The notes: a model not told the origin generated them from the letters alone. A DNA stretch of 58,774 nucleotides from an uncultured Rhizobiaceae bacterium (GCA_964484785.1 CAZAFD010000001.1:6671-65444), one strand, 5' to 3'. Counted from the first letter of the stretch, positions 3,779-40,583 are shown. Numbers and translations: made by a program.

Positions 3779-4510
3779 TTACATATGTTTGCCTCTACCG
3801 CCAATTTTTGGGATTATCTTCTTGTTAACCAAAGTATCTTTTGCATATTTTGAATATACACTATAAAGAGTACATTCGATGTTATCAGAGTTTTTATCAA
3901 ATATATCTATTTGTAACAAGATATCAGCATAGCTGTTATATGTGAGATCAGCTTCTATTAGAGATTGTATATGCAAGACTTTATTATCTATATGTCTAGT
4001 AACCAATATTTCATTTTGATTAAAGATATTTACAGTGATTAACTTCTGCGTGGATAAATCTTTTAAGCTTGGATATTTGCCTATTAGATTATTGATTCTT
4101 GCACTTTCTTCTTTGCTTGGTTTGGTACAAGATTCCTGTAGAGCTAACTGTGAAGACCATATACTTAATCGTAATAAATCACATCCATCTACAAGAGATT
4201 TAGTATGTAGTTTTGCCTTACGAAGTATGGATAATAGAACACATTTTTTAGCATAGCTTGATATAAGAGTTTTTTCGTAAGCATTACTCGGTTGTGGTCT
4301 ATATTTAAAATATGATTGACAACTGTTAATTAAATAATCTTTTTGACTTAAAAAGAGACTATCTTCATTTTCTATAAAGGCTTCTGTGCGCATCCTTAAG
4401 TTATCGATCTTTTCTCTCTGAAATTTAAAATCTGAAATAGTGTAGTCACTAAAGATAAAATCAAAAAATACATACACCAATATGACTACAAGTAATAAAA
4501 AACGCTTCAT
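3779..4510 (-). CDS. hypothetical exported or membrane-anchored protein, last gene of the four-gene operon
   Basis: 243 aa with an N-terminal hydrophobic segment (MKRFLLLVVILVYVFFDFIFS). It starts 3 nt after the upstream stop. I recognise no motif. Confidence 0.55.
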   Translation of the reverse strand: MKRFLLLVVILVYVFFDFIFSDYTISDFKFQREKIDNLRMRTEAFIENEDSLFLSQKDYLINSCQSYFKYRPQPSNAYEKTLISSYAKKCVLLSILRKAKLHTKSLVDGCDLLRLSIWSSQLALQESCTKPSKEESARINNLIGKYPSLKDLSTQKLITVNIFNQNEILVTRHIDNKVLHIQSLIEADLTYNSYADILLQIDIFDKNSDNIECTLYSVYSKYAKDTLVNKKIIPKIGGRGKHM

Positions 4511-4513
4511 TAA

Positions 4514-5242
4514 TTAAAAACTCCTTAATAATTCGTCCAACTCAACATCATAACTTTCGTATTGTCCACTATTATTAATAGATGTGCTTTTGGTTTTTTG
4601 ATTCTTATTCATAAAGCTATTATTCTCGAATTTACCTTCTATAATTTTATCAAGCATAGGAATATAAGTTTGATTAACCGATAAATGTATAGTTAGCTCA
4701 TACTTACCATCTGCATTGGCTTTATAATTGTCGTTTTGTATGTTATTATGAATATACTCGTGCTTTATCTTTGATATAGTCCATAAAATGGTAGCAGAGT
4801 TTTTATCTAGGTTAAGAATTTTATATTCTCCTTTAGCAGCCTTGTTTGAAGTATTACTAATTTTTTTATCATTAATCCACAAGGTCCAGCTATCATCTGA
4901 CGAATAAATAATGGACTTTAAATATATATTGAAGTTTTGTATATTGTTTGTACTCGGGGTGGTAATTACATCTTCTACATTACCGCCAGCTTCTTTGCTC
5001 TCTATATTTTGATAACTAGCGTAGGCATTTAATACCTTTTTGAGTATTAAAATCTGTTTTTCTAAGAAAAATATACTATCTAAACTGGAGTAGTAATTAT
5101 CATCTAATGACTTAGGTATGATTTGAGTTTTTTTATCACTGTTTGAATTATTCTCATTTGACGCTTGTGTTTCTTTACTTAAACAAATGCCTGTTTTTGT
5201 TGTAAAATATAGTAATGTAAAAATTATGAGACATTTTTTCAT
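4514..5242 (-). CDS. hypothetical secreted protein, PilP/GspC-like by position and topology
   Basis: I moved the start to MKKCLIIFTLLYFTTKTGIC (ATG at 5242, 1 nt after the upstream stop at 5244-5246). It has a signal peptide with a non-canonical lipobox-like TGIC. The C-terminal segment SWTLWINDKKIS...GEYKILNLDKNSATILWT recalls the PilP/GspC beta-domain pattern. This is inference only. Confidence 0.55.
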   Translation of the reverse strand: MKKCLIIFTLLYFTTKTGICLSKETQASNENNSNSDKKTQIIPKSLDDNYYSSLDSIFFLEKQILILKKVLNAYASYQNIESKEAGGNVEDVITTPSTNNIQNFNIYLKSIIYSSDDSWTLWINDKKISNTSNKAAKGEYKILNLDKNSATILWTISKIKHEYIHNNIQNDNYKANADGKYELTIHLSVNQTYIPMLDKIIEGKFENNSFMNKNQKTKSTSINNSGQYESYDVELDELLRSF

Positions 5243-5243
5243 T

Positions 5244-5879
5244 TTAATTTCCCAAGTAAAAAGCATTTAAATTTAAATCTACCTCAAGTAATGGTAATAA
5301 ATTGTTATTTAGTGTGTTTTGAACAAAGACCTTATCTATTTGTCTTAGCTTAATAATTTGTATGCTATCTATAGTAATAAAACAATTCAGCTTGTCTTTG
5401 AGGTTTTTAATAAAACTAAAAATATCATGTTCACTAAAACATTTAAACTTTAAACTTATATCTTTAGAATAAATCTTATTTTTATAAGTACTTTCATGTA
5501 AAAGTGTAGCTTCACTGGTTTTTACATTTAAATCAAAAATATTAAATTCTTGCGCGTTTGTTGAGATCAGTTTGACTAAATTAGTGGTGTCTAGTTTAAA
5601 AAAATCTTTTTTCCTTAAGTCTTGATAATTAAATACCTTAGCATACTTTTCTGCTAAGGATACCTCTTCGGTTATTTTGATTAAATCCCCATCTAGTTGT
5701 TGATTCTTTTGTTTTAAATTAATTAAGGAATCCTTCTTACTAACCTTTTGTTTTTTGTTTAAAAAATAAAGACCAAAATTGGCGCCAATAATTAAAACAA
5801 GTAATATACTAATATATATGTTTGTATTGATAAGAAGTTGTTTTTTATCTCCAACCTTATTTTTTCTTTTAAAAATCAT
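5244..5879 (-). CDS. bitopic membrane protein, PilO/GspM-like
   Basis: 211 aa. It has a short basic N-terminus, one TM (NIYISILLVLIIGANFGLYFL), a coiled-coil-like stretch, then a strand-helix-strand pattern (ISLKFKC..HDIFSFIKNLKD..FITIDSIQII..LEVDLNLNAFY) typical of PilN/PilO/GspM ferredoxin-like domains. Its start overlaps the upstream stop (ATGA at 5876-5879). Confidence 0.55.
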   Translation of the reverse strand: MIFKRKNKVGDKKQLLINTNIYISILLVLIIGANFGLYFLNKKQKVSKKDSLINLKQKNQQLDGDLIKITEEVSLAEKYAKVFNYQDLRKKDFFKLDTTNLVKLISTNAQEFNIFDLNVKTSEATLLHESTYKNKIYSKDISLKFKCFSEHDIFSFIKNLKDKLNCFITIDSIQIIKLRQIDKVFVQNTLNNNLLPLLEVDLNLNAFYLGN

Positions 5880-7399
5880 AAAGACTCCAACTCAAAAGTT
5901 ATTGGTGCGCTGGAATAAAACTTATTAAAGTCAATTTTATTCTTATCAAAGGTCAATGTTTTAATCTGCAGCTTCTTTTTTATTCCTTTTTCTAAAGACG
6001 ACTTAAAGCTTTCATAATTTTCCAATAAAGTTTCAGCTGATCCAGAATCATAATTGTTCATTAGTGATCCACTAAAATGCCAAGTAGCCTTAACTACGTA
6101 ATCGTTCTTAAAATTCTTTGCATCAAAACCACTTTGTTGCCACTTAAATTTTGATAAAGTAACTTTACCCGGCATAAGTTGTGCGAATAATTTGAAATCG
6201 TCAAAAGGAGTTAGTTTGTTTTTTTGTAAAAATTCGTGGATAAGTCCTAGGTCTATTATTGAGTGGATATTGTCCTTTTTCAAAATTGCAACATTCTTTT
6301 TAGTATCAAGTTCTGTAGTCTTGGTTTTTATGGATTGATTAACCTTTCTCATATCAAAAAAGTACGACATATATACAATACAGAAGCCTACGGCCAAATA
6401 GGTAAAGATAAGTAGGGCTAAATAAATTAAATTTTTTAAAATATGATCTATTTTTAATAGAAGATTAATTAGTCTAGTAGATGGTGTAAAAAATTTAAAA
6501 ATATTTCGCTTAAATGTGACCAGGTTGTTATAAACAATATCAGCGTATTCATAATCAATTTCCTTTTCTCTATTGAACTTTGTTTTAAATAATCTAGCGA
6601 GGATTTCGCTGGTATCAAAGTACATGGAATTAATAGTCTTTAAATCAGATCTGTTAAAAACATTCTTTATAAGCGAGGTCGTGATTCCTATTATCGATAG
6701 ATTTTCAGATTTAAAATCTGCATCAAAACGTTTAATAAAGCCATTGGTTCTGGCTATATCGTTTTCAAATAGCATTGTTTTTGTCTTAATATCAGATTCT
6801 GCATTGTTAATATCATACAAGAATCTCGTAAAAACTAACTTTTGATTTCTAAAGGCTATTTGTCTTATTCCACTAACCTTTGTTTCTACTAGCAGTAGTA
6901 TCCACTTCTTTTTCTTTAATATAGGAAACTGTTTTAAAAGTTCCTTTAGTATTCTCGTGCTTTCCAGGGGCGCCATATATATGCCAGCCAATAAATTTGG
7001 AACAGTCTCTATAAATGCTATTATATCATTAAGAATTGGCTCGACAGGAGAAGATACGAAGAGATATTCCCATTCTTTTGTAGTATCATTCTTACCAAGA
7101 AAGAGCTTGGTACGTAGATCTTCGCTTGGTGTTTCAAAATTGAATTTCCTATTTACAACTTTATGCAAGTCAAAGATATTTATACTTTTAGGAAACTTTT
7201 TTAAACTATAGTTTTGTCCAATGTTATCCAATAATACATAAACCTTAGCCCTGCTATGTTCTAATAATAATGATCGTAATTCTTCTTTAACTTGGTCATT
7301 AAACTCCTTAAAGAACTTTTCATGAACGACCATTTTAGACTTGTTAAGTCTAAAATACAGTCCATAATTACCAATTAGAATTGTAAAATATGTGGCCAT
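5876..7399 (-). CDS. bitopic membrane protein, GspL-like (PilM-PilN fusion architecture)
   Basis: 507 aa. It has a ~320-aa cytoplasmic part, a single TM (LIYLALLIFTYLAVGFCIVYMSYFF) and a ~150-aa C-terminal part with a PilN-like pattern (ATWHFSGSL...LQIKTLTF...PITFELE). The assignment rests on architecture only. Confidence 0.5.
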   Translation of the reverse strand: MATYFTILIGNYGLYFRLNKSKMVVHEKFFKEFNDQVKEELRSLLLEHSRAKVYVLLDNIGQNYSLKKFPKSINIFDLHKVVNRKFNFETPSEDLRTKLFLGKNDTTKEWEYLFVSSPVEPILNDIIAFIETVPNLLAGIYMAPLESTRILKELLKQFPILKKKKWILLLVETKVSGIRQIAFRNQKLVFTRFLYDINNAESDIKTKTMLFENDIARTNGFIKRFDADFKSENLSIIGITTSLIKNVFNRSDLKTINSMYFDTSEILARLFKTKFNREKEIDYEYADIVYNNLVTFKRNIFKFFTPSTRLINLLLKIDHILKNLIYLALLIFTYLAVGFCIVYMSYFFDMRKVNQSIKTKTTELDTKKNVAILKKDNIHSIIDLGLIHEFLQKNKLTPFDDFKLFAQLMPGKVTLSKFKWQQSGFDAKNFKNDYVVKATWHFSGSLMNNYDSGSAETLLENYESFKSSLEKGIKKKLQIKTLTFDKNKIDFNKFYSSAPITFELESL

Positions 7400-20096: not shown

Positions 20097-21665
20097 ATGG
20101 TTGAAGAGAATAAGGTTGTTAATGATGATCCTACTATAGTTGAAAGTGATGGTATAAACCAGGATTCGAGTATTGTTGATAAGGGTACAAGCGTGGGTCT
20201 AATGTCAAACAATAAGACGTTAGTCATAATGGTTTGTTCTGTGTTTGGGGCTATTATCTTTTATTTATTTTTTTTTAAAAAATCTAATAAAGAAGATGTT
20301 CTATCTGATGCTAATTTATTAGTTAGAGATAATCAAACTACAAACCCTAATCGTCCCAGCTATAGTGATTTAGATACAGCATTGGATAATACCACTAAAC
20401 AAACAAATGATTATTTATTTGATGAAAAACCAGTCGATCTAGTGCCAGATATTCCAGATAGTAAGCTGGACATGCAAATACAAATACCTGAATTGTCACA
20501 TAATACAAAACAACAAATAGAGAAAGATCTCTCAGAAAGTCTTTTAGAAAACAATATAGCGGACGGCAAGAATTATTTTACTAAAGAACAAGTTGATTCG
20601 CTGATAAATGAAAAATTACAAAACTTTGAATCCACTCTTAAATCTATGCAGAGTGAGAGCTCTAGGTTGGCTGAAGAATTGAAAAAACGAGATGAAGAAG
20701 CGGCTGCCGAGAAGAAAAAGGATAACAGGATTACGAGTAATTTATTTTCTGATTCAAAAAACAAAAATGAAGTATCCCCTAATAAGGCTGCAGTTAATCC
20801 ATTTGCTAGCGATAGTGGGTTAGATAAAGACAAAGAGGATAATGAGGAAAAGAAACAAGAAGATCTATTAAAGATGGCTCAAAGGAATAGGGTTATGGTA
20901 GAAAGAAGAGCTGCTCCGATGTTTAAAATGCAGGGCGGCGGTGGAGGCTCTTCCGCAATGGATCAAGAGAGTATTATCATTATGGATAAGAATCTTCTCA
21001 CAGGAGTTAAGGAGACTCAGCAGAATGTGGTTGCTACTAAAACTTCTGACCTGACACGGGTTATACTACAAGGAAAAATTATAGATGCTGTATTAGAAAC
21101 AGCTATTGATACTGATATTGCAGCCCAAGTGCGAGCTGTGGTTACGAGAGATGTTTACGCCGAATATGGCAAGAATGTATTAATACCAAAAGGATCTAGG
21201 GTAGTAGGGACCTTTCAGAGTCAGGTAACAACTGGAGTTGCTCGACTAGGTATAGTCTGGAATAGAATTATTAGAGTAGACGGCCTTAGTCTAAATATCG
21301 CTGCTAATACTACAGATGAGCTAGGCCGTGGCGGTGTAGCCGGTGATTTAGATAATAAATATTTTCAAACCCTTAGAAATGCTTTTTTGTCTAGTATGCT
21401 AACCATTGCGACAGCACATCTAGTGGAAAAAGTAACAGATAGTAGTGGTTTAACAGTTGTGAAGGATAAAGATGGAGCTATCACAGATGTGGGTGGAAGT
21501 GCAACTTCTTTTGCTATAAGAGATGCCACTCAAGATTTTATGGATGAAGCTAAGGATATAGTTGATAATATGAAGGAAGAAAAACCTACTATCCGTATAG
21601 CGCAGGGAACAAAAATAATTATTATGGTAAATCAAGATTTGAATTTACCAGTATATAAAAAATAG
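20097..21665 (+). CDS. virB10: type IV secretion system protein VirB10
   Basis: 522 aa. It has an N-terminal TM (LVIMVCSVFGAIIFYLFFF), a charged linker and a C-terminal TrbI/VirB10 barrel (VILQGKIIDAVLETAIDTDIAAQVRAVVTRDVY...LIPKGSRVVGTF). Confidence 0.88.
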   Translation: MVEENKVVNDDPTIVESDGINQDSSIVDKGTSVGLMSNNKTLVIMVCSVFGAIIFYLFFFKKSNKEDVLSDANLLVRDNQTTNPNRPSYSDLDTALDNTTKQTNDYLFDEKPVDLVPDIPDSKLDMQIQIPELSHNTKQQIEKDLSESLLENNIADGKNYFTKEQVDSLINEKLQNFESTLKSMQSESSRLAEELKKRDEEAAAEKKKDNRITSNLFSDSKNKNEVSPNKAAVNPFASDSGLDKDKEDNEEKKQEDLLKMAQRNRVMVERRAAPMFKMQGGGGGSSAMDQESIIIMDKNLLTGVKETQQNVVATKTSDLTRVILQGKIIDAVLETAIDTDIAAQVRAVVTRDVYAEYGKNVLIPKGSRVVGTFQSQVTTGVARLGIVWNRIIRVDGLSLNIAANTTDELGRGGVAGDLDNKYFQTLRNAFLSSMLTIATAHLVEKVTDSSGLTVVKDKDGAITDVGGSATSFAIRDATQDFMDEAKDIVDNMKEEKPTIRIAQGTKIIIMVNQDLNLPVYKK

Positions 21666-21677
21666 TCAGAGGTTACC

Positions 21678-22670
21678 ATGTCAAATTTTGAAGCTCTCGA
21701 TATATATCTTAAACCAATTACTATGCTTTTAAGTAAGGAGGGTATTAACGAGGTTTCAATTAATGAGCCAAATGAGGCTTGGGTAGAAAAACGTGGAGAC
21801 ATGTATAAAGTAAGAATTGATGGATATGACCTTAGATATTTAAAGTCTCTAGGTAGATTAATTGCCCAATCAACAGACCAAAAAATAAGCGAAGAGACAC
21901 CTTTGCTGTCTGCTACTCTGCCTGCTGGTTATCGTATACAAGTTGTTTTTCCTCCGGCATGTGAAAATCACACCGTCATAATGTCTATCAGAAAGAAGAA
22001 TGATTTAGTTTGGACTCTTGATGACTATGAAAGAATGGGAGCCTTCGCTAATACAAAAATTAAAGAAGAGCAGGAAGAAAGCGTAAAGGTATTATCTCGC
22101 TTAATGAAAGAGAATAAAATAAAAGAGTTCCTGAATTACGCAATTTTAAAAAAGAAAAATATTATAATTAGTGGTGGTACCTCTACTGGTAAAACCACTT
22201 TCACAAATGCTTGTTTACAAGCTATACCAAAGGTTGAAAGATTAATAAGTGTTGAAGATGCTCGAGAAATTGATTTCAGTGGTCACCCAAACAAGGTGCA
22301 TTTGTTAGCTTCTAAAGGAGGACAGGGTAGGGCTAATGTTACCGCTCAGGATTTGATTGAGGCATGCTTACGTTTAAGACCAGATAGAATTATTGTTGGT
22401 GAATTAAGAGGTAGTGAGGCCTTCTCTTTTTTAAGAGCCATTAATACTGGACACCCAGGATCCATTTCTACTTTACACGCTGATACACCTAAAATGGCAC
22501 TACAACAGCTAAAATTAATGGTTATGCAAGCAGGCCTTAATATGCCGCCAGATGATATATTTAACTATATCAGAAATGTGGTTGATATTGTTGTCCAGTT
22601 AAAACGTGGAGAAAAAGGTGTCAGGTTTGTTTCTGAAATATATTATAGAGACTATGATGAAAATGCTTGA
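21678..22670 (+). CDS. virB11: type IV secretion ATPase VirB11
   Basis: 330 aa with the Walker A GGTSTGKTT, RPDRIIVGELRG and TGHPGSISTLHA. It sits between virB10 and virD4. Confidence 0.9.
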   Translation: MSNFEALDIYLKPITMLLSKEGINEVSINEPNEAWVEKRGDMYKVRIDGYDLRYLKSLGRLIAQSTDQKISEETPLLSATLPAGYRIQVVFPPACENHTVIMSIRKKNDLVWTLDDYERMGAFANTKIKEEQEESVKVLSRLMKENKIKEFLNYAILKKKNIIISGGTSTGKTTFTNACLQAIPKVERLISVEDAREIDFSGHPNKVHLLASKGGQGRANVTAQDLIEACLRLRPDRIIVGELRGSEAFSFLRAINTGHPGSISTLHADTPKMALQQLKLMVMQAGLNMPPDDIFNYIRNVVDIVVQLKRGEKGVRFVSEIYYRDYDENA

Positions 22671-22739
22671 AGTTTTATTATTAACTAGTACATTCCATAT
22701 GTCTAGGTATTAATTTATTGATTTAAGAGAGTTAGGTAT

Positions 22740-24512
22740 ATGGCAAACAGCAATGAATCAAGGATGACTGCATTGAGGAACTTTTTAGTAAATGTGTTGC
22801 TGCATTTATTGGTCCTTGGTTTTTGTTTTTACATATCAAGTCTTTTAATTGTCTATTTAAGATATGGTTCTAAGAGTTTAAAAGTGGTGTTAGCGCGAGG
22901 TTTATTAGATCAAGTCCTCGTGGGAAAGGGCCAATTATTCCAAGTTTGGGATATAATGCTTCATAATTTTGATAAAATTTCGAGTTTATATGTTGATTAT
23001 ATTAAATATATTGGAGCCACTATTTTACCTTTTGGTGTGTATTGTTATGTCTTTTATAAAAATAGGGAAAGTATATTAAGTTGGAAACCCTTTAAAAGCG
23101 CGGAGAGTCAGTTTGGAGATGCACACTGGGCAACAGAGAAAGAAGTTAAACAAATGGGTCTACGGAAGGCCAAGGGTATGCTATTGGGCATATATAAAGG
23201 AAAGTATCTTGTTGAATATACTTTTCAACATGCCTTATTGTTTGCCCCAACTGGTTCCGGTAAGGGTGTTGGATTTGTGATTCCAAATTTATTATTTTGG
23301 GAAGAGTCCGTGATTGTTCATGATGTTAAGGCGGAGAACTATGAACTCACGAGTGGTTATAGATTTACAAAGTTAAAGCAAAAAGTATTTGTTTGGAGTC
23401 CAGCTGATCAACAGGGTGTTACTCACTGTTATAATCCTTTAGATTGGGTTTCTAGAAATACTGGTGGTCTAGTTGATGATGTTCAGAAGATATCTAAGTT
23501 TTTGTTACCAAAACAAGAATTTTGGGAGAGCGAGGCCAGATCTTTTACTACAGGAATTATATTATATCTATTTGCAGACGAAGCTAAGCCTCATACTTTA
23601 GGTCAAGCCTTACGTGAGATGAAGAGCGATGATGTAGCCTATAATTTAGCTGTTGTTTTAGATACGCTTGGCGGTAAGATGCACCCTCTTGCTTATATGA
23701 ATATTAGTGCTTGGTTACAAAAAGCAGAGAAGGAACGTTCTGGTGTGACGTCGACAGCTACGTCGGCTTTGGAGTTGTGGTCTAACCCTTTTGTAGACGC
23801 TGCTACTTCCAGAAGCCACTTTAATATAGGTAAGTTTAGAACTATAGCCCATACATTATATGTATGCATATCTCCTAATAATATTGAACGTTTGAAACCT
23901 TTATTACAGATCTTTTATCAACAGTGTGGTTCTATTTTTACAGCTAAATTACCAAACAAGAAAATAGAAAAATTAGGTGTTTTAATGTTGTTAGATGAGT
24001 TTCCTACTTTAGGCAAAATGGAGGAAATAAAGGTCGGTATAGCTTATTATCGTGGTTATCAAGTGAAGTTATTTTTAGTTGTTCAGGATACAGAGCAATT
24101 AAAAGCAATTTATGAAGCTTCGGGTATGAACTCATTTTTATCTAACTCTACATACAGAATAACTTTTGCAGCAAACAATAATGATACAGCTAAGTTAATA
24201 TCTGACTTATTAGGAAATAAAACTATTATTAATGAAAGTTATAGTAGACCAAAGTATCTAGATTTAAATCCAAGCTCTAGAAATGTAAATATTAGTAAGA
24301 GTTCAAGAGCCCTCTTACTACCTCAAGAGATTATTACTCTATCTAGGGATGATGAGATTATTCTAATTGAGTCCAAACCTCCAATTAGGTGTAAGAAAAT
24401 AGTACATTACAAAGATCCTATGTTCTTAAAAAGAGTTTTACCAAAGATACCTGTTCCAAAACAGGAACCTGTTGGGGCAACGACCAATAAAAAAGCCCCG
24501 GCTCAAAACTAA
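22740..24512 (+). CDS. virD4: type IV coupling protein VirD4/TraG
   Basis: 590 aa with N-terminal TM helices, the Walker A FAPTGSGKGVGFVIPN, MLLDEFPTLGKM and the VVQDTEQL motif. Confidence 0.9.
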   Translation: MANSNESRMTALRNFLVNVLLHLLVLGFCFYISSLLIVYLRYGSKSLKVVLARGLLDQVLVGKGQLFQVWDIMLHNFDKISSLYVDYIKYIGATILPFGVYCYVFYKNRESILSWKPFKSAESQFGDAHWATEKEVKQMGLRKAKGMLLGIYKGKYLVEYTFQHALLFAPTGSGKGVGFVIPNLLFWEESVIVHDVKAENYELTSGYRFTKLKQKVFVWSPADQQGVTHCYNPLDWVSRNTGGLVDDVQKISKFLLPKQEFWESEARSFTTGIILYLFADEAKPHTLGQALREMKSDDVAYNLAVVLDTLGGKMHPLAYMNISAWLQKAEKERSGVTSTATSALELWSNPFVDAATSRSHFNIGKFRTIAHTLYVCISPNNIERLKPLLQIFYQQCGSIFTAKLPNKKIEKLGVLMLLDEFPTLGKMEEIKVGIAYYRGYQVKLFLVVQDTEQLKAIYEASGMNSFLSNSTYRITFAANNNDTAKLISDLLGNKTIINESYSRPKYLDLNPSSRNVNISKSSRALLLPQEIITLSRDDEIILIESKPPIRCKKIVHYKDPMFLKRVLPKIPVPKQEPVGATTNKKAPAQN

Positions 24513-38486: not shown

Positions 38487-40583
38487 ATGCCAAATAAAAA
38501 GAAACAGCCATCAAACTCAATTGCTTTACAAAAGTTGGAAGAGGTAATAAGTCGTAGTAATTTACCAGCTCAGCTCAAAGGAGCACTTAAGGATAGAGTT
38601 TCTAGTAGTATTGGAACACAGAGCAGAAGTAATATTCAAGAATATATCGACTTGCTACAGAAAGATATAAACCGTGTTGTTCAGGAGATGGAAGCTTTAG
38701 TTGGGTCAATAAAGACGATGACTGATGCTTATCAAGATTTTATATCAAAAAACGTACTAACGATATTTACTAATAACGTTTATGAATGGCTTACTATAGT
38801 AGATTTAGATCAGAGATCTGCCGATAGCATTTCATCTATAGCAAAATGCATAGGAGCTGTGAATAATATACGGGAGGAAACCAAACCTTTATCTGATATA
38901 AGAGACAAAGGTCTTAGAGAAGAGATATACAAAATATATGCAAAGGACCTCGAAACTATATTAAGTAAAAATTCTAGTGATATACAAGTCACTTTGGCTG
39001 CAATTATTGAACTAGAAAAAAACCTTAATGAAACTATATCTTTAATAACCAAAGAATCTTTAATAACTGAAGAATCACTAGAAGAGCGGGTTCTAACATA
39101 TTTAAACGAGCAATCCCCTGGGGACACAACTATAAGCGAATTGGAAAGGCTTATGCAAAGCTTACTACGAGAAGACGAACGCGAGTTACAAGTGACAGAT
39201 CAGCAATTGGCTGCTGCGTCCTTGATAAATGAAGGCCATTTACCAAAACAATGGAAAGATGCTCTTAGGGCAAGCGCTAATTTAAGTCTTGAAGAATACA
39301 AAGCCTTTCTTGCAGCAGGAGAGTTGGAGCTTGCCGCAGAGCATGTAGGATCATTACGTGGTAATATAATCGCTAGTATATACAAGATCGATTTATTGAT
39401 AAAAACACTAGAAAATGTAGTTGCTAACAGTTCTGGGATAATATCTCAAACTACTAAGGATAAATTCAGCGAAAATATTTGTGCATTGTTTACAGAAAAC
39501 AAATTAGAGTCTGTAGTTTCATCCGAATGGATATTGGCCTTGAATGATGCACTAGCATTTAGGATGACAGACCAGAAACTTGGATTGTCTGATACTGATA
39601 TAAAAGATGCAGAACTCAAACAGCTTATATGTGATTTATATCGAAGAAGTGTTGATACCATATTAAGAGAAAATCCTATAAGGATAAATGAGGTTATAAA
39701 TAAAATTAGTGATTTAAATGATGATTTTAATGCAGTTATAGCTTCAGTCAAAACAACTGATCTAGATCTCAAGGGTGTATTAGAGGGAAGAATGATTACA
39801 GTTTTAGAAGGCCAACCTTCTATAACTATGGCTGAGTTACGGCAGATTGTGCGGGCATCGGGAAGAGAAAGAACCACCACGTTAAATGGTGTAATACAGA
39901 AACGATATGAAGAATTCATACAAATAATAAGGAATCTGTATTCTGGCACTGAAATTCCAACAATGGCTATTACTATGATTCAGAATGTTTATTCCACATT
40001 AAGGAATAATAAGCAAAGAAATACATTAGAGTTAATAGCTGCTCTTCCAAATGGACTTGGCAATTTAGATCGTAATTTGGAAACATTAAATAAAATACTT
40101 GGAGAACAAAGCCAAGAATATGCGTTAACAAAAAAGAGAATAAAGGCACAACAAAATCCAATACGTATGATTGCAGCATCCGTGGTGGCTATTGCAGCTG
40201 TAGCAGTTGCTGCTGTAGCCAGTGTGTTTTTAGCACCAATGGCATTTATACCAGTAATTGTAGCAGCTAGTTTATGCGGTATTGCAACGGCAGCGTACGC
40301 CGCATTGCCATTTACAAAAACCCGGAAAAATATGGCATATAAGGCTCTAGATAAAAAGATTATTAAAGAGTTAGAAGCTGCTATAGGCATAGAACCATCC
40401 CGTACTGATGATATATTGGTACTAGCTACTGAGCGAGATCAGACTACACGCATTGAAGTGGCTGATCAGCTTACACAAGGTTCCTCAGTTGATGGTCGTA
40501 GTCAAGGTCAGACTGCTTTGAGCGTAAATCTTAGCCAGGCTATCGAACAAATGTCAGCTCCTGAAGTAACGCGAGAACTGTAG
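38487..40583 (+). CDS. orphan large protein, paralog B: duplicated module plus bilobed hydrophobic hairpin (candidate secreted membrane effector)
   Basis: 698 aa. LPAQLKGALK is at nt 38562 and LPKQWKDALR at 39240 (678 nt apart, in frame). The hydrophobic stretch IAASVVAIAAVAVAAVASVFLAPMAFIPVIVAASLCGIATAAYAALPF and the tail are shared with paralog A. Confidence 0.75.
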   Translation: MPNKKKQPSNSIALQKLEEVISRSNLPAQLKGALKDRVSSSIGTQSRSNIQEYIDLLQKDINRVVQEMEALVGSIKTMTDAYQDFISKNVLTIFTNNVYEWLTIVDLDQRSADSISSIAKCIGAVNNIREETKPLSDIRDKGLREEIYKIYAKDLETILSKNSSDIQVTLAAIIELEKNLNETISLITKESLITEESLEERVLTYLNEQSPGDTTISELERLMQSLLREDERELQVTDQQLAAASLINEGHLPKQWKDALRASANLSLEEYKAFLAAGELELAAEHVGSLRGNIIASIYKIDLLIKTLENVVANSSGIISQTTKDKFSENICALFTENKLESVVSSEWILALNDALAFRMTDQKLGLSDTDIKDAELKQLICDLYRRSVDTILRENPIRINEVINKISDLNDDFNAVIASVKTTDLDLKGVLEGRMITVLEGQPSITMAELRQIVRASGRERTTTLNGVIQKRYEEFIQIIRNLYSGTEIPTMAITMIQNVYSTLRNNKQRNTLELIAALPNGLGNLDRNLETLNKILGEQSQEYALTKKRIKAQQNPIRMIAASVVAIAAVAVAAVASVFLAPMAFIPVIVAASLCGIATAAYAALPFTKTRKNMAYKALDKKIIKELEAAIGIEPSRTDDILVLATERDQTTRIEVADQLTQGSSVDGRSQGQTALSVNLSQAIEQMSAPEVTREL

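What the first reader, a model, noticed from the sequence alone, without database searches (positions are those of the whole stretch)
3779..7399. Tightly coupled four-gene operon with GspL(PilM-PilN fusion)/PilO/PilP-like topologies but no secretin: possible minimal or novel type IV filament assembly platform
Seen in sequence: four same-strand ORFs have junctions of -4 nt (ATGA overlap at 5876-5879), +1 nt (stop at 5244-5246, ATG at 5242) and +3 nt. The first is 507 aa, with a large cytoplasmic part, one TM near residue 330 and a ~150-aa C-terminal domain. The second is 211 aa, with an N-terminal TM, a coiled coil and a strand-helix-strand-strand pattern ending LEVDLNLNAFY. The third is 250 aa, with a signal peptide and a beta-rich C-terminus. 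The fourth is 243 aa and signal-anchored, with no recognisable motif. Established knowledge: GspL is the fused equivalent of PilM+PilN; GspM/PilO are bitopic with ferredoxin-like periplasmic domains; PilP/GspC follow and contact the secretin. Inference: this is the alignment subcomplex of a T4P/T2SS-like machine. The position normally held by the ~700-aa secretin PilQ is taken by a small unknown protein. Two pilin-like genes elsewhere in the window support a functional filament system, which is unexpected in so reduced a genome.
Basis: partly seen in the sequence, partly recalled or inferred. Interest (0 to 1): 0.72.

Follow-up and report, generated by a model that had tools for sequence, protein, structure and literature searches.

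The report
Divergent type IV pilus alignment-complex operon
These genes most likely encode the inner-membrane scaffold (a fused PilM-PilN/GspL-like protein, a PilO-like partner and a PilP-like periplasmic protein) of a type IV pilus in a Rickettsiales-like bacterium, in a form so diverged that no family database recognises it; it is a new version of a known machine, not a new machine.

Summary
The four tightly packed minus-strand ORFs exist as described. One correction: the third gene probably starts at ATG 5242 (242 aa), not 5266.

None of the four matches any Pfam or NCBIfam model or any PDB sequence. The first three nonetheless form a conserved module (g1-g2-g3):
- The 507-aa family has 623 clusters at 50% identity, found in uncultured Rickettsiales and alphaproteobacterial MAGs.
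- In 3 genome loci and 45 of 73 informative metagenome loci, the module sits directly behind a PilB/MshE-type ATPase gene and a PilC/GspF-type platform gene (median gap 9 nt).
- PilT/PilU genes often lie nearby. Sister clusters carry an MshL-type secretin.

The AlphaFold model of the 507-aa protein shows an actin-like cytoplasmic domain (Foldseek hits include PilM, PulL and FtsA), one TM/coiled-coil helix and an alpha-beta-beta-alpha-beta-beta periplasmic domain. The third protein has a confident beta domain that resembles PilP only weakly.

The fourth gene (243 aa) occurs in only 5 of 44 loci and does not stand in for a secretin. The window also holds two prepilin-like genes.

Verdict: this is the alignment subcomplex of an MSHA/T4aP-like pilus, a new variant of a known kind. 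"No secretin" and "minimal machine" are not shown. Type IV pilus/T2SS parts are already reported in Rickettsiales.

The parts
5876..7399 (-). g1, 507 aa. A GspL/MshI-like fusion: actin-like (ASKHA) cytoplasmic domain (about 1-300), one TM plus coiled-coil helix (about 306-367) and a periplasmic alpha-beta-beta-alpha-beta-beta domain (about 398-506).
   Evidence: ORF. AF2 model: pLDDT 70. Foldseek against PDB: PilM (5eou, 2ych, 3jc8_Ma), PulL cytoplasmic domain (5tkw), FtsA and other ASKHA proteins at E 3.5e-5 to 1e-3. TM span 319-348. Family size: 623 clusters. No Pfam or NCBIfam hit. Homologues lie directly after PilB/PilC genes.
5244..5879 (-). g2, 211 aa. Bitopic protein with an N-terminal TM (about 13-41), a predicted coiled coil and a C-terminal globular domain. 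Inferred PilO/GspM/MshJ equivalent.
   Evidence: ORF with a 4-nt overlap with g1. TM. It follows g1 in 41 of 45 sources, the window included. Clade-only profile A2 hits 18 ORFs in the same position in PilC-linked loci. No family or PDB sequence match. Fold not tested.
4514..5242 (-). g3, 242 aa from ATG 5242 (250 aa if from 5266). Signal peptide, disordered linker, conserved helix (about 61-76) and a confident beta-rich domain (about 106-202). Inferred PilP/MshK/GspC-HR-like periplasmic component.
   Evidence: Start site. AF2 with 46 sequences: beta domain at pLDDT 85-97. Foldseek: nothing significant. PilP entries rank 5 and 7 (3jc8_Pa at E 0.26; 2lc4 at E 0.36, probability 0.47). Conserved after g2 in 35 loci. 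Clade-only profile A3 hits 20 ORFs in PilC-linked loci.
3779..4510 (-). g4, 243 aa. Lineage-specific accessory protein with an N-terminal signal or anchor and a roughly 215-aa domain with four conserved cysteines. Function unknown; not part of the conserved core.
   Evidence: ORF. Homologues only in L002, L003, L007 and L010. Its HMM hits nothing in 80 PilC-anchored loci. No Pfam, NCBIfam or PDB match. Invariant C64, C90, C128 and C213.
34589..35428 (-). Prepilin-like gene 1 (279-aa ORF). Class III signal ...KSA|FSLVELSIVLIIIGLL at residues 44-66. Probable filament subunit.
   Evidence: TIGR02532 at 19.3 bits, above the 16.3 cut-off. Pfam N_methyl at E 0.0024. Sequence.
57649..58410 (-). Prepilin-like gene 2 (253-aa ORF). 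Same N-terminal 65 residues as gene 1, with a different C-terminal domain.
   Evidence: TIGR02532 at 19.5 bits, above the 16.3 cut-off. Pfam N_methyl at E 0.0021. Shares a 299-nt 5' repeat with gene 1 at 92% identity.

Best explanation
The operon encodes the inner-membrane alignment (assembly-platform) subcomplex of a type IV pilus of MSHA/T4aP type, in a highly diverged, Rickettsiales-typical form.

Proposed mechanism:
- g1 is a single-chain equivalent of PilM+PilN (as in GspL or MshI). Its actin-like cytoplasmic domain would dock the hexameric extension ATPase (PilB/MshE type) and the PilC platform.
- The TM/coiled-coil helix and ferredoxin-like periplasmic domain of g1 would pair with the bitopic g2 (PilO/MshJ equivalent).
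- g3, a secreted periplasmic protein, would bind the g1-g2 dimer through its N-terminal conserved helix. Through its beta domain it would reach the outer-membrane conduit, as PilP/MshK/GspC do.
- The two prepilin-like proteins in the window would be the filament subunits.
- g4 is a lineage-specific periplasmic accessory protein, not a core part.

Shown: the ORFs and their topology; the fold of g1; conservation of the module; homology of g1-g3 to ORFs encoded directly behind pilB-pilC.

Inferred: all protein contacts; the PilO and PilP roles; and that the window's genome still has the ATPase, platform, peptidase and secretin.
For: 1. Structure of g1: an ASKHA-like N-terminal domain, a helix at 306-367 and a C-terminal H398-407/E413-421/E439-447/H455-473/E477-483/E497-506 pattern. 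To my knowledge (not tested with a tool here) this a-b-b-a-b-b order is that of PilN, PilO, GspM and the periplasmic domain of GspL. Foldseek hits include PilM (5eou_B has the best TMq, 0.36), PulL and FtsA at E about 1e-4.
2. Context in genomes: in MAG loci L041, L042 and L044 the module directly follows T2SSE+MshEN (E 1e-121 to 1e-125) and T2SSF genes.
3. Context in metagenomes: among loci fetched with a PilC query, 45 of 73 informative loci have a g1-family gene as the next gene (median gap 9 nt). 39 of those 45 also have the ATPase gene directly upstream of PilC, and 28 carry the full g1-g2-g3 order.
5. PilT/PilU genes lie beside the cluster. In L060 they score 397 and 478 bits against TIGR01420 (cut-off 319). 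13 loci have PilT-sized T2SSE ATPases.
6. The ATPases carry the MshE-type c-di-GMP motif (NF053729, 57-60 bits against a cut-off of 38).
7. The sister cluster in L125 has the order AAA_22 ATPase, MshL secretin (273 bits against a cut-off of 250), TPR protein, ATPase, platform, g1-like gene. L116 and L123 carry overlapping parts of the same arrangement.
8. The window has two prepilin-type genes.
9. Gene sizes match my recollection of MshI/J/K and GspL/M (507 and 211 aa). E. coli GspL is 387 aa and GspM 153 aa.
Against: - No sequence-level link to any known PilM, PilN, PilO, PilP or GspL, GspM, GspC family. Pfam and NCBIfam give nothing. Profile searches against PDB sequences give nothing better than PilN at E 0.56. 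hhalign against E. coli Gsp and Hof proteins is negative.
- The g1 fold match is to the ASKHA superfamily in general. The top hits are BT_3980 and type III pantothenate kinase, and TM-scores are low (0.2-0.5).
- The g3 match to PilP is not significant.
- The fold of g2 is untested, and g2 shows no significant similarity to the g1 C-terminal domain.
- In the window, and in most Rickettsiales genome loci (36 of 39), the module is not next to pilB/pilC but next to housekeeping genes. Whether those genomes still have the motor is unknown.
- No prepilin peptidase or secretin is found in the window.
Confidence: 0.78

Rival explanations
1. The proteins are the GspL-GspM-GspC part of a type II secretion system, with pseudopili and protein export rather than a surface pilus.
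For: - The gene order E-F-L-M recalls gsp operons.
- The platform protein scores best against GspF (304 bits, below the cut-off of 424). The ATPase scores almost as well against GspE (494 bits) as against PilB (516 bits).
- The window's pilin-like N-termini weakly match GspG.
- Deianiraea was described as having a 'core T2SS set including three pseudopilins' (bioRxiv 10.1101/479196).
Against: - PilT/PilU retraction ATPases lie beside the cluster in many loci. To my knowledge T2SS do not use retraction ATPases.
- The ATPase has the MshE-type c-di-GMP domain.
- The secretin of the sister cluster passes the MshL equivalog cut-off, not the GspD one (149 bits against 351).
- No gspG-K pseudopilin block lies between F and L.
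- The window's pilin-like proteins are 250-280 aa, far larger than GspG (145 aa in E. coli).
- No curated T2SS cut-off is reached.
Confidence: 0.12
2. The module is an envelope complex unrelated to type IV filaments, for example an FtsA-like or other actin-fold membrane scaffold for division, envelope biogenesis or the rvh type IV secretion system. Its adjacency to pilB/pilC in some lineages would then be incidental.
For: - In 36 of 39 Rickettsiales genome loci, and in the window, the neighbours are housekeeping genes (acpS, gpsA, guaA, pyrC, thiD).
- FtsA is among the Foldseek hits.
- The window carries virB10, virB11 and virD4.
- There is no sequence similarity to Pil or Gsp proteins.
Against: - Immediate, same-strand adjacency with a median gap of 9 nt occurs in 45 independent metagenome loci, 3 MAG loci and MSHA-like sister clusters. 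That is far beyond chance.
- The three-protein architecture matches the PilMN-O-P/GspL-M-C pattern part by part: fused actin-fold bitopic protein, small bitopic protein, periplasmic beta-domain protein.
- The operon is 12 kb from the vir genes and shows no similarity to VirB proteins.
Confidence: 0.06
3. The module belongs to a DNA-uptake (competence) pilus rather than an adhesion or motility pilus.
For: A comEC gene (Pfam Competence) follows the module directly in the three closest relatives with long contigs: L003, L004 and L005. E. coli HofMNOPQ are annotated as DNA-utilisation proteins.
Against: - comEC is not adjacent in the window or in the other roughly 120 loci.
- No other competence gene was seen nearby.
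- This rival concerns the pilus's use, not the identity of the module, so it is compatible with the main explanation.
Confidence: 0.15

Closest known systems
MSHA-type pilus assembly proteins MshI / MshJ / MshK (Vibrio). From my own knowledge: MshI is a PilM-PilN fusion, MshJ is PilO-like and MshK is PilP-like.
   Same: - A fused actin-fold-plus-bitopic first protein of about 500 aa, followed by a bitopic protein of about 215 aa and a small periplasmic protein.
- The associated ATPase carries the MshE-type c-di-GMP-binding N-terminus.
- Sister clusters have an MshL-equivalog secretin, a TPR (MshN-like) protein and an AAA_22 (MshM-like) protein.
   Different: - No detectable sequence similarity.
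- Gene order is ATPase, platform, g1-g2-g3, whereas the order I recall for the Vibrio msh locus is I-J-K-L-M-N-E-G.
- The secretin is not in the locus in the Rickettsiales-type clusters.
- PilT/PilU genes are adjacent.
- g3 is much longer (240-450 aa), with a low-complexity linker and an extra conserved helix.
- g4 has no counterpart.
T4aP alignment subcomplex PilM-PilN-PilO-PilP (Pseudomonas, Myxococcus, Thermus; PDB 5eou, 2ych, 3jc8, 2lc4)
   Same: - The actin-like fold of the g1 N-terminal domain matches PilM structures.
- The TM, coiled-coil and a-b-b-a-b-b layout is that of PilN and PilO (from my own knowledge).
- The g3 beta domain weakly resembles PilP.
- The system includes a PilB-like ATPase, PilC and PilT/PilU.
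   Different: - PilM and PilN are fused into one chain.
- The module is encoded after pilB-pilC, not as pilMNOPQ with the secretin.
- g3 has a cleavable signal peptide rather than a conserved lipobox.
- The ASKHA phosphate-2 motif appears to be replaced by a conserved 'NKVSGxRQ' (read by eye from the alignment), so ATP binding as in PilM is doubtful.
- No Pfam PilM_2, PilN, PilO or PilP hit.
T2SS assembly platform GspL-GspM-GspC (PDB 5tkw, PulL cytoplasmic domain)
   Same: - GspL is the classic single-chain protein with an actin-like cytoplasmic domain, a TM and a ferredoxin-like periplasmic domain. PulL is among the Foldseek hits.
- The L-M gene pair follows E-F.
- The platform protein is nearest to GspF.
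   Different: - No pseudopilin block and no GspD-type secretin.
- Retraction ATPases are present.
- g1 is about 120 aa longer than E. coli GspL (387 aa).
- g3 lacks the TM anchor and the PDZ domain of GspC.
- No sequence similarity.

Membership tests
GspL / MshI / fused PilM-PilN | Cytoplasmic N-terminal domain with an actin-like (ASKHA) fold | tested here: met
   AF2 model. Foldseek probability about 1.0 to PilM (5eou, 2ych, 3jc8_Ma), PulL (5tkw) and FtsA at E 7.5e-5 to 5e-4. It matches non-pilus ASKHA proteins equally well, so this shows the superfamily, not the specific family.
GspL / MshI / fused PilM-PilN | A single TM helix, then a coiled coil and a periplasmic ferredoxin-like a-b-b-a-b-b domain | tested here: met
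   One hydrophobic span at 319-348. Continuous helix 306-367, then H398-407, E413-421, E439-447, H455-473, E477-483 and E497-506 (pLDDT 58-79 in this part, so moderate confidence). The domain was not searched on its own against PDB.
GspL / MshI / fused PilM-PilN | Sequence match to the family models (Pfam GspL, PilM_2, PilN; PDB homologues) | tested here: not met
   No Pfam or NCBIfam hit for the window protein or for 42 diverse family members. Profile against PDB sequences: PilN 3jc8_Na only at E 0.56. hhalign against E. coli GspL, HofM and HofN: P>0.15.
GspL / MshI / fused PilM-PilN | Encoded with, and functionally tied to, a T2SSE-family ATPase and a T2SSF platform protein | tested here: met
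   Met for homologues: 3 MAG loci and 45 of 73 informative metagenome loci, with a median gap of 9 nt. Not met in the window itself, where no such genes occur within 59 kb.
PilO / GspM / MshJ | Small bitopic protein (N-in TM, coiled coil, C-terminal ferredoxin-like domain) encoded directly after the PilN/GspL gene | tested here: inconclusive
   Position and single N-terminal TM are confirmed. No sequence match to PilO or GspM. hhalign against the g1 C-terminal globular domain: P=0.18.
PilP / MshK / GspC HR domain | Periplasmic beta-sandwich domain of PilP/HR type | tested here: inconclusive
   Confident beta domain at 106-202 (pLDDT 85-97). Best Foldseek E is 0.12. PilP entries rank 5 and 7 of 350,542 chains (E 0.26 and 0.36; TM to target 0.28-0.37). 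Suggestive only.
PilP / MshK / GspC HR domain | Inner-membrane anchoring by a lipid (PilP lipobox) or a TM helix (GspC) | tested here: not met
   N-termini look like cleavable signal peptides. No cysteine is conserved at the cleavage region across orthologues, and no 19-residue hydrophobic span is present.
Type IV pilus system (T4aP/MSH class) | Prepilin-type subunits with an N-terminal cleavage/methylation motif | tested here: met
   Two window ORFs pass TIGR02532 (19.3 and 19.5 bits against 16.3). Ala rather than Gly sits at position -1.
Type IV pilus system (T4aP/MSH class) | Extension ATPase, platform protein and prepilin peptidase in the same genome | not testable with these tools
   None lies within the window. 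The rest of the genome could not be read. Relatives have the ATPase and platform. No peptidase was seen in any fetched locus.
Type IV pilus system (T4aP/MSH class) | Outer-membrane secretin | tested here: not met
   No secretin in the window or in about 120 related loci by phmmer with E. coli GspD and HofQ. The exceptions are sister clusters L125 (TIGR02519 MshL, 273 bits against a cut-off of 250) and L116. It may be encoded elsewhere in the genome.
Type II secretion system | GspD secretin, a GspG-K pseudopilin block, and curated GspE/GspF equivalog scores | tested here: not met
   The ATPase scores 494 bits (cut-off 630) and the platform 304 bits (cut-off 424). There is no pseudopilin block between the platform gene and g1. 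The sister-cluster secretin scores 149 bits against GspD (cut-off 351).

The most novel reading that the evidence does not exclude
In the window's lineage the g1-g2-g3 scaffold has become uncoupled from a secretin, and possibly from the canonical motor genes. It would work with the lineage-specific, cysteine-rich 243-aa periplasmic protein (g4) as part of a secretin-independent, reduced envelope-spanning filament device used for host attachment or DNA uptake. That would be a real architectural departure from all diderm type IV filament systems.
Probability: 0.07. Interest if true: 0.8.

Novelty: new variant of a known kind. Interest (0 to 1): 0.42.

Why it matters
Three protein families, each annotated only as "hypothetical protein" where a source name was given and covered by no Pfam or NCBIfam model, can now be assigned to the type IV pilus alignment complex. 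The first alone has 623 clusters at 50% identity.

- Surveys that score T4P/T2SS completeness in Rickettsiales and related Alphaproteobacteria with standard profiles will miss these parts. Systems will be called incomplete or "generic", as was noted for the chlamydial T2SS, which apparently lacks GspLM (PMC6668835).
[quoted passage not shown] Knowing the full machine gives concrete targets for cryo-ET, localisation and interaction studies.
- It also gives markers for tracing gain and loss of pili along the evolution of host association.
- The locus type (MshE-like c-di-GMP-sensing ATPase, platform, fused L-like protein, M-like, P-like, with pilT/pilU alongside) may deserve its own model in TFF classification tools.

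Tried and rejected
1. Direct family assignment. Pfam and NCBIfam scans of the four proteins gave only noise (SecY at E 0.076, SpoIIM, SrfF). A scan of 42 diverse g1 homologues also gave nothing.
2. Sequence and profile searches against PDB sequences, with shallow and deep alignments of g1-g4. Nothing significant. The hits were coiled-coil or compositional, plus PilN at E 0.56.
3. hhalign of the g1, g2 and g3 profiles against E. coli GspC/D/E/F/G/L/M/O and HofM/N/O/P/Q. All P>0.1.
4. Test for PilN/PilO-style paralogy between g2 and the g1 C-terminal half. The TM/coiled-coil parts align (P=2.7e-4), but that could be compositional. The globular domains do not align (P=0.18).
5. Word-index homologue searches found only 8 (g1) and 4 (g2) relatives, wrongly suggesting a tiny family. 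The exhaustive HMM search corrected this.
6. g4 as a conserved fourth member or secretin substitute: rejected. It occurs in 5 of 44 loci. The roughly 245-aa ORF after g3 in PilBC-linked loci is an ABC ATPase.
7. acpS, gpsA, guaA, pyrC and thiD upstream of g1 in many MAGs were first taken as possible system parts. They are housekeeping genes.
9. The promoter/terminator scan of the operon was uninformative: fewer promoter-like sites than in shuffles.
10. Supplementary files of PMC10847448 held no per-gene pil/gsp table.
11. The organism could not be named. Cluster look-ups carry no names, and no identical locus was returned from the GTDB representative genomes (best 32% identity).

Full report
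**Observation**

The region holds four consecutive minus-strand ORFs: 7399..5876 (507 aa, g1), 5879..5244 (211 aa, g2), 5266..4514 (250 aa, g3) and 4510..3779 (243 aa, g4).
- g1 and g2 overlap by ATGA.
- The g2 stop (5246-5244) is followed one base later by an ATG at 5242. That ATG begins MKKCLIIF..., the point where all orthologues begin. g3 is therefore most likely 242 aa.
- g3 and g4 are 3 nt apart.
- Hydropathy confirms one TM in g1 (about 319-348), one N-terminal TM in g2 (about 13-41), a signal-peptide-like N-terminus in g3 and a hydrophobic N-terminus in g4.
- Flanking genes are housekeeping: an ADP-forming acyl-CoA synthetase-like gene, a phosphomannomutase, a thioredoxin-reductase-like gene, pyruvate kinase and FabI.

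The window also carries virB10, virB11 and virD4 and a 23S-5S rRNA unit without 16S. G+C is about 30%. All related genome loci come from uncultured Rickettsiales or alphaproteobacterial MAGs. The organism is therefore Rickettsiales-like, but I could not name it.

**No sequence-level identity**

None of the four proteins matches a Pfam or NCBIfam model. Profiles of shallow or deep alignments do not match any PDB sequence. The best relevant hit is PilN 3jc8_Na at E 0.56, over the TM/coiled-coil part. hhalign against E. coli GspC/L/M and HofM/N/O/P is negative.

**The family is large and uncharted**

The word-index search found only 8 relatives of g1. An exhaustive HMM search with that 8-sequence profile found 623 clusters (50%-identity representatives) at E<=1e-3 and 235 at E<=1e-30. 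Nearly all are full-length proteins of 500-600 aa. None of 42 sampled members has a Pfam domain. Homologues of g3 are annotated "hypothetical protein" where a source name was given.

**Structure**

- g1. The AlphaFold2 model (8 sequences, mean pLDDT 70) has an alpha/beta N-terminal domain, a long helix at 306-367 containing the TM, and a C-terminal alpha-beta-beta-alpha-beta-beta unit. Foldseek against PDB gives 34 hits at E<=1e-3, all actin-like ATPase-fold proteins. They include PilM from P. aeruginosa, T. thermophilus and M. xanthus, the cytoplasmic domain of the T2SS protein PulL, and FtsA. They also include type III pantothenate kinase, Ppx and sugar kinases. The fold is therefore ASKHA, and assignment to PilM/GspL is not unique by structure alone. 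The whole architecture (ASKHA domain, TM/coiled coil, ferredoxin-like a-b-b-a-b-b domain) is that of GspL, MshI or a PilM-PilN fusion; this comparison rests on my own knowledge of those families.
- g3. The model (46 sequences) has a confident beta domain at 106-202 (pLDDT 85-97) preceded by a conserved helix and disordered linkers. Foldseek finds nothing significant. Two independent PilP entries rank 5 and 7 (E 0.26 and 0.36). That is a hint, not a result.
- g2.

**Genomic context: the decisive evidence**

ORF maps of 44 related loci show g1-g2-g3 as a conserved unit. g2 follows g1 in 41 of the 45 sources that have g1 (the 44 loci plus the window), and g3 follows in 35.

In three MAG loci (L041, L042, L044) the unit directly follows genes with T2SSE+MshEN and T2SSF domains (E 1e-121 to 1e-125 and 1e-45 to 1e-53).

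I then fetched 80 metagenome loci using only the PilC-like protein as query.
- In 45 of 73 informative loci the next gene is a g1-family member (median gap 9 nt).
- 39 of those 45 have the ATPase gene directly upstream of the PilC-like gene.
- 28 carry the full g1-g2-g3 order.
- 13 have PilT-sized ATPases on the opposite strand just beyond.
- In L060 these pass the PilT/PilU subfamily cut-off (397 and 478 bits against 319).

To avoid circularity I rebuilt HMMs from the window's nearest clade only (A1, A2, A3). With Z set to 1.84e9 they still hit 42 g1, 18 g2 and 20 g3 ORFs in those PilC-anchored loci, with a best score of 184.6 bits.

The ATPases fall between the PilB (516 bits) and GspE (494 bits) equivalogs without reaching either cut-off. 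They carry the MshE-type c-di-GMP-binding motif (57-60 bits against a cut-off of 38). The platform is nearest to GspF.

More distant g1 relatives (E 1e-12 to 1e-15) sit in clusters that together read AAA_22 ATPase, secretin, TPR protein, ATPase, platform, g1-like, 207-aa, 151-aa, pilins. L125 covers the first part, through the start of the g1-like gene. L116 and L123 cover the rest. The secretin passes the MshL equivalog cut-off (273 bits against 250). From my own knowledge of the Vibrio msh locus, this is an MSHA-like parts list with the I/J/K-like genes moved behind the platform gene.

**Pilins**

The window has two prepilin-type ORFs (34589-35428 and 57649-58410, minus strand) that pass TIGR02532. 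No other such motif occurs in the six frames.

**The fourth gene and the secretin question**

g4 has homologues in only four other loci (L002, L003, L007, L010). It is missing in the close relatives L004 and L005, where comEC follows g3 directly. It is not found in any PilC-anchored locus. It has a hydrophobic N-terminus and four invariant cysteines and no recognisable family. It is a lineage-specific accessory, not a substitute for PilQ.

No secretin or prepilin peptidase gene occurs in the window or in the roughly 120 fetched loci, apart from the MshL-type genes in L116 and L125. In this family the secretin, if present, is encoded elsewhere. Its absence from a 59-kb window is not evidence of a secretin-less machine.

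**Interpretation**

The best explanation (confidence about 0.78) is that g1-g2-g3 are the alignment/assembly-platform subcomplex of an MSHA/T4aP-like pilus.
- The g1 cytoplasmic domain couples to the extension ATPase and platform.
- g1 and g2 pair in the periplasm as PilN and PilO, or GspL and GspM, do.
- g3 links them to the outer-membrane part as PilP, MshK and GspC do.

These contacts are inferred, not shown.

Rivals:
- A T2SS reading (0.12) is weakened by adjacent PilT/PilU genes, the MshL-type secretin in sister clusters, the lack of a pseudopilin block and the large pilins.
- An unrelated envelope scaffold (0.06) is hard to reconcile with dozens of independent, tight pilB-pilC-g1 junctions.
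- A competence-pilus role, suggested by comEC adjacency in three relatives, is compatible with the main reading and remains open.

**Caveat for the window itself**

Here, and in 36 of 39 Rickettsiales genome loci, the module lies among housekeeping genes. guaA is nearby both in these loci and in the pilBC-linked ones. Whether these genomes keep the motor genes could not be checked.

**Comparison with what is known, and novelty**

T4P/T2SS components have been reported in basal Rickettsiales, in the clade those authors call DDG (which includes Deianiraea) and sporadically elsewhere, with a proposed role in attachment to host cells (PMC10847448, PMC9352585). Deianiraea was said to have a core T2SS set with three pseudopilins (bioRxiv 10.1101/479196). 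A filament system in such a bacterium is therefore not surprising.

What is new is the identification of the alignment-complex genes in a form that no profile detects, and a locus type (MshE-like ATPase, platform, fused L-like, M-like, P-like, with pilT/pilU alongside) that does not meet the curated cut-offs of T4aP or T2SS and departs in gene order from MSHA. Denise et al. note that diverged systems are classed "generic" when GspLM-type proteins are not recognised (PMC6668835).

I rate this a new variant of a known kind, of moderate interest (0.42).

Noticed in passing
window 20097-24512 (+): Genes of an rvh-type type IV secretion system: VirB10/TrbI (522 aa), VirB11 (330 aa, T2SSE family) and VirD4 coupling protein (590 aa). 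They lie directly after dnaX, with no virB8 or virB9 upstream.
   Followed up: partly
window 29851-32828 (+): 23S and 5S rRNA genes with no 16S gene beside them. To my knowledge a split rRNA operon is typical of Rickettsiales.
   Followed up: no
window 35174-35472 and 58156-58454: The two prepilin-like genes share a 299-nt 5' repeat (92% identity) covering the upstream 44 nt and the first ~85 codons. The predicted leader is unusually long (43 aa) and contains an (AG)n dinucleotide tract (codons RERERE). An in-frame TTG lies 12 codons before the cleavage site, and the -1 residue is Ala rather than Gly. This could mean a mis-called start, or phase variation by repeat slippage.
   Followed up: partly
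window 14549-16810 (+) and 38487-40583 (+): Two large paralogous proteins (753 and 698 aa) with internally repeated 'SNLPDQ(F/L)KEALK...' segments and a C-terminal pair of hydrophobic helices. Neither matches a Pfam family. They look like secreted or membrane-inserted effector candidates.
   Followed up: no
L003 13680-15662; L004 3696-5651; L005 3626-5590: A comEC (Pfam Competence) gene follows the g1-g2-g3(-g4) module directly in the three closest relatives with long contigs. This hints at a link to DNA uptake.
   Followed up: partly
L049-L095 (e.g. L060 12561-13292, 13296-15553, 15869-17143): In pilB-pilC-linked loci the module is followed by a conserved ABC-transporter ATPase gene (~245 aa). 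A PilT/PilU pair then lies on the opposite strand, and in L060 a TPR protein follows.
   Followed up: partly
L098-L126 (e.g. L106 8001-9194): More distant PilC relatives (39-45% identity) sit in a different cluster type. Three or four ORFs of 180-230 aa lie upstream, ORFs of 206-235 and ~320 aa lie downstream, and there is no g1-family gene. The cluster was not characterised.
   Followed up: no
window 7473-9551 (-) and 9752-11155 (+): An ADP-forming acyl-CoA synthetase-type protein (CoA_binding + Succ_CoA_lig + ATP-grasp_5) and a pyruvate kinase flank the operon. Together with the gut and colon origin of some related MAGs (e.g. the water-deer colon MAG behind L007), this suggests fermentative ATP generation.
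   Followed up: no
L012, L025, L037, L038, L043 record titles: Several freshwater MAGs that carry the module are deposited as 'Rickettsia typhi' or 'Rhizobium sp.'. These labels look like taxonomic mislabels of environmental Rickettsiales-like genomes.
   Followed up: no
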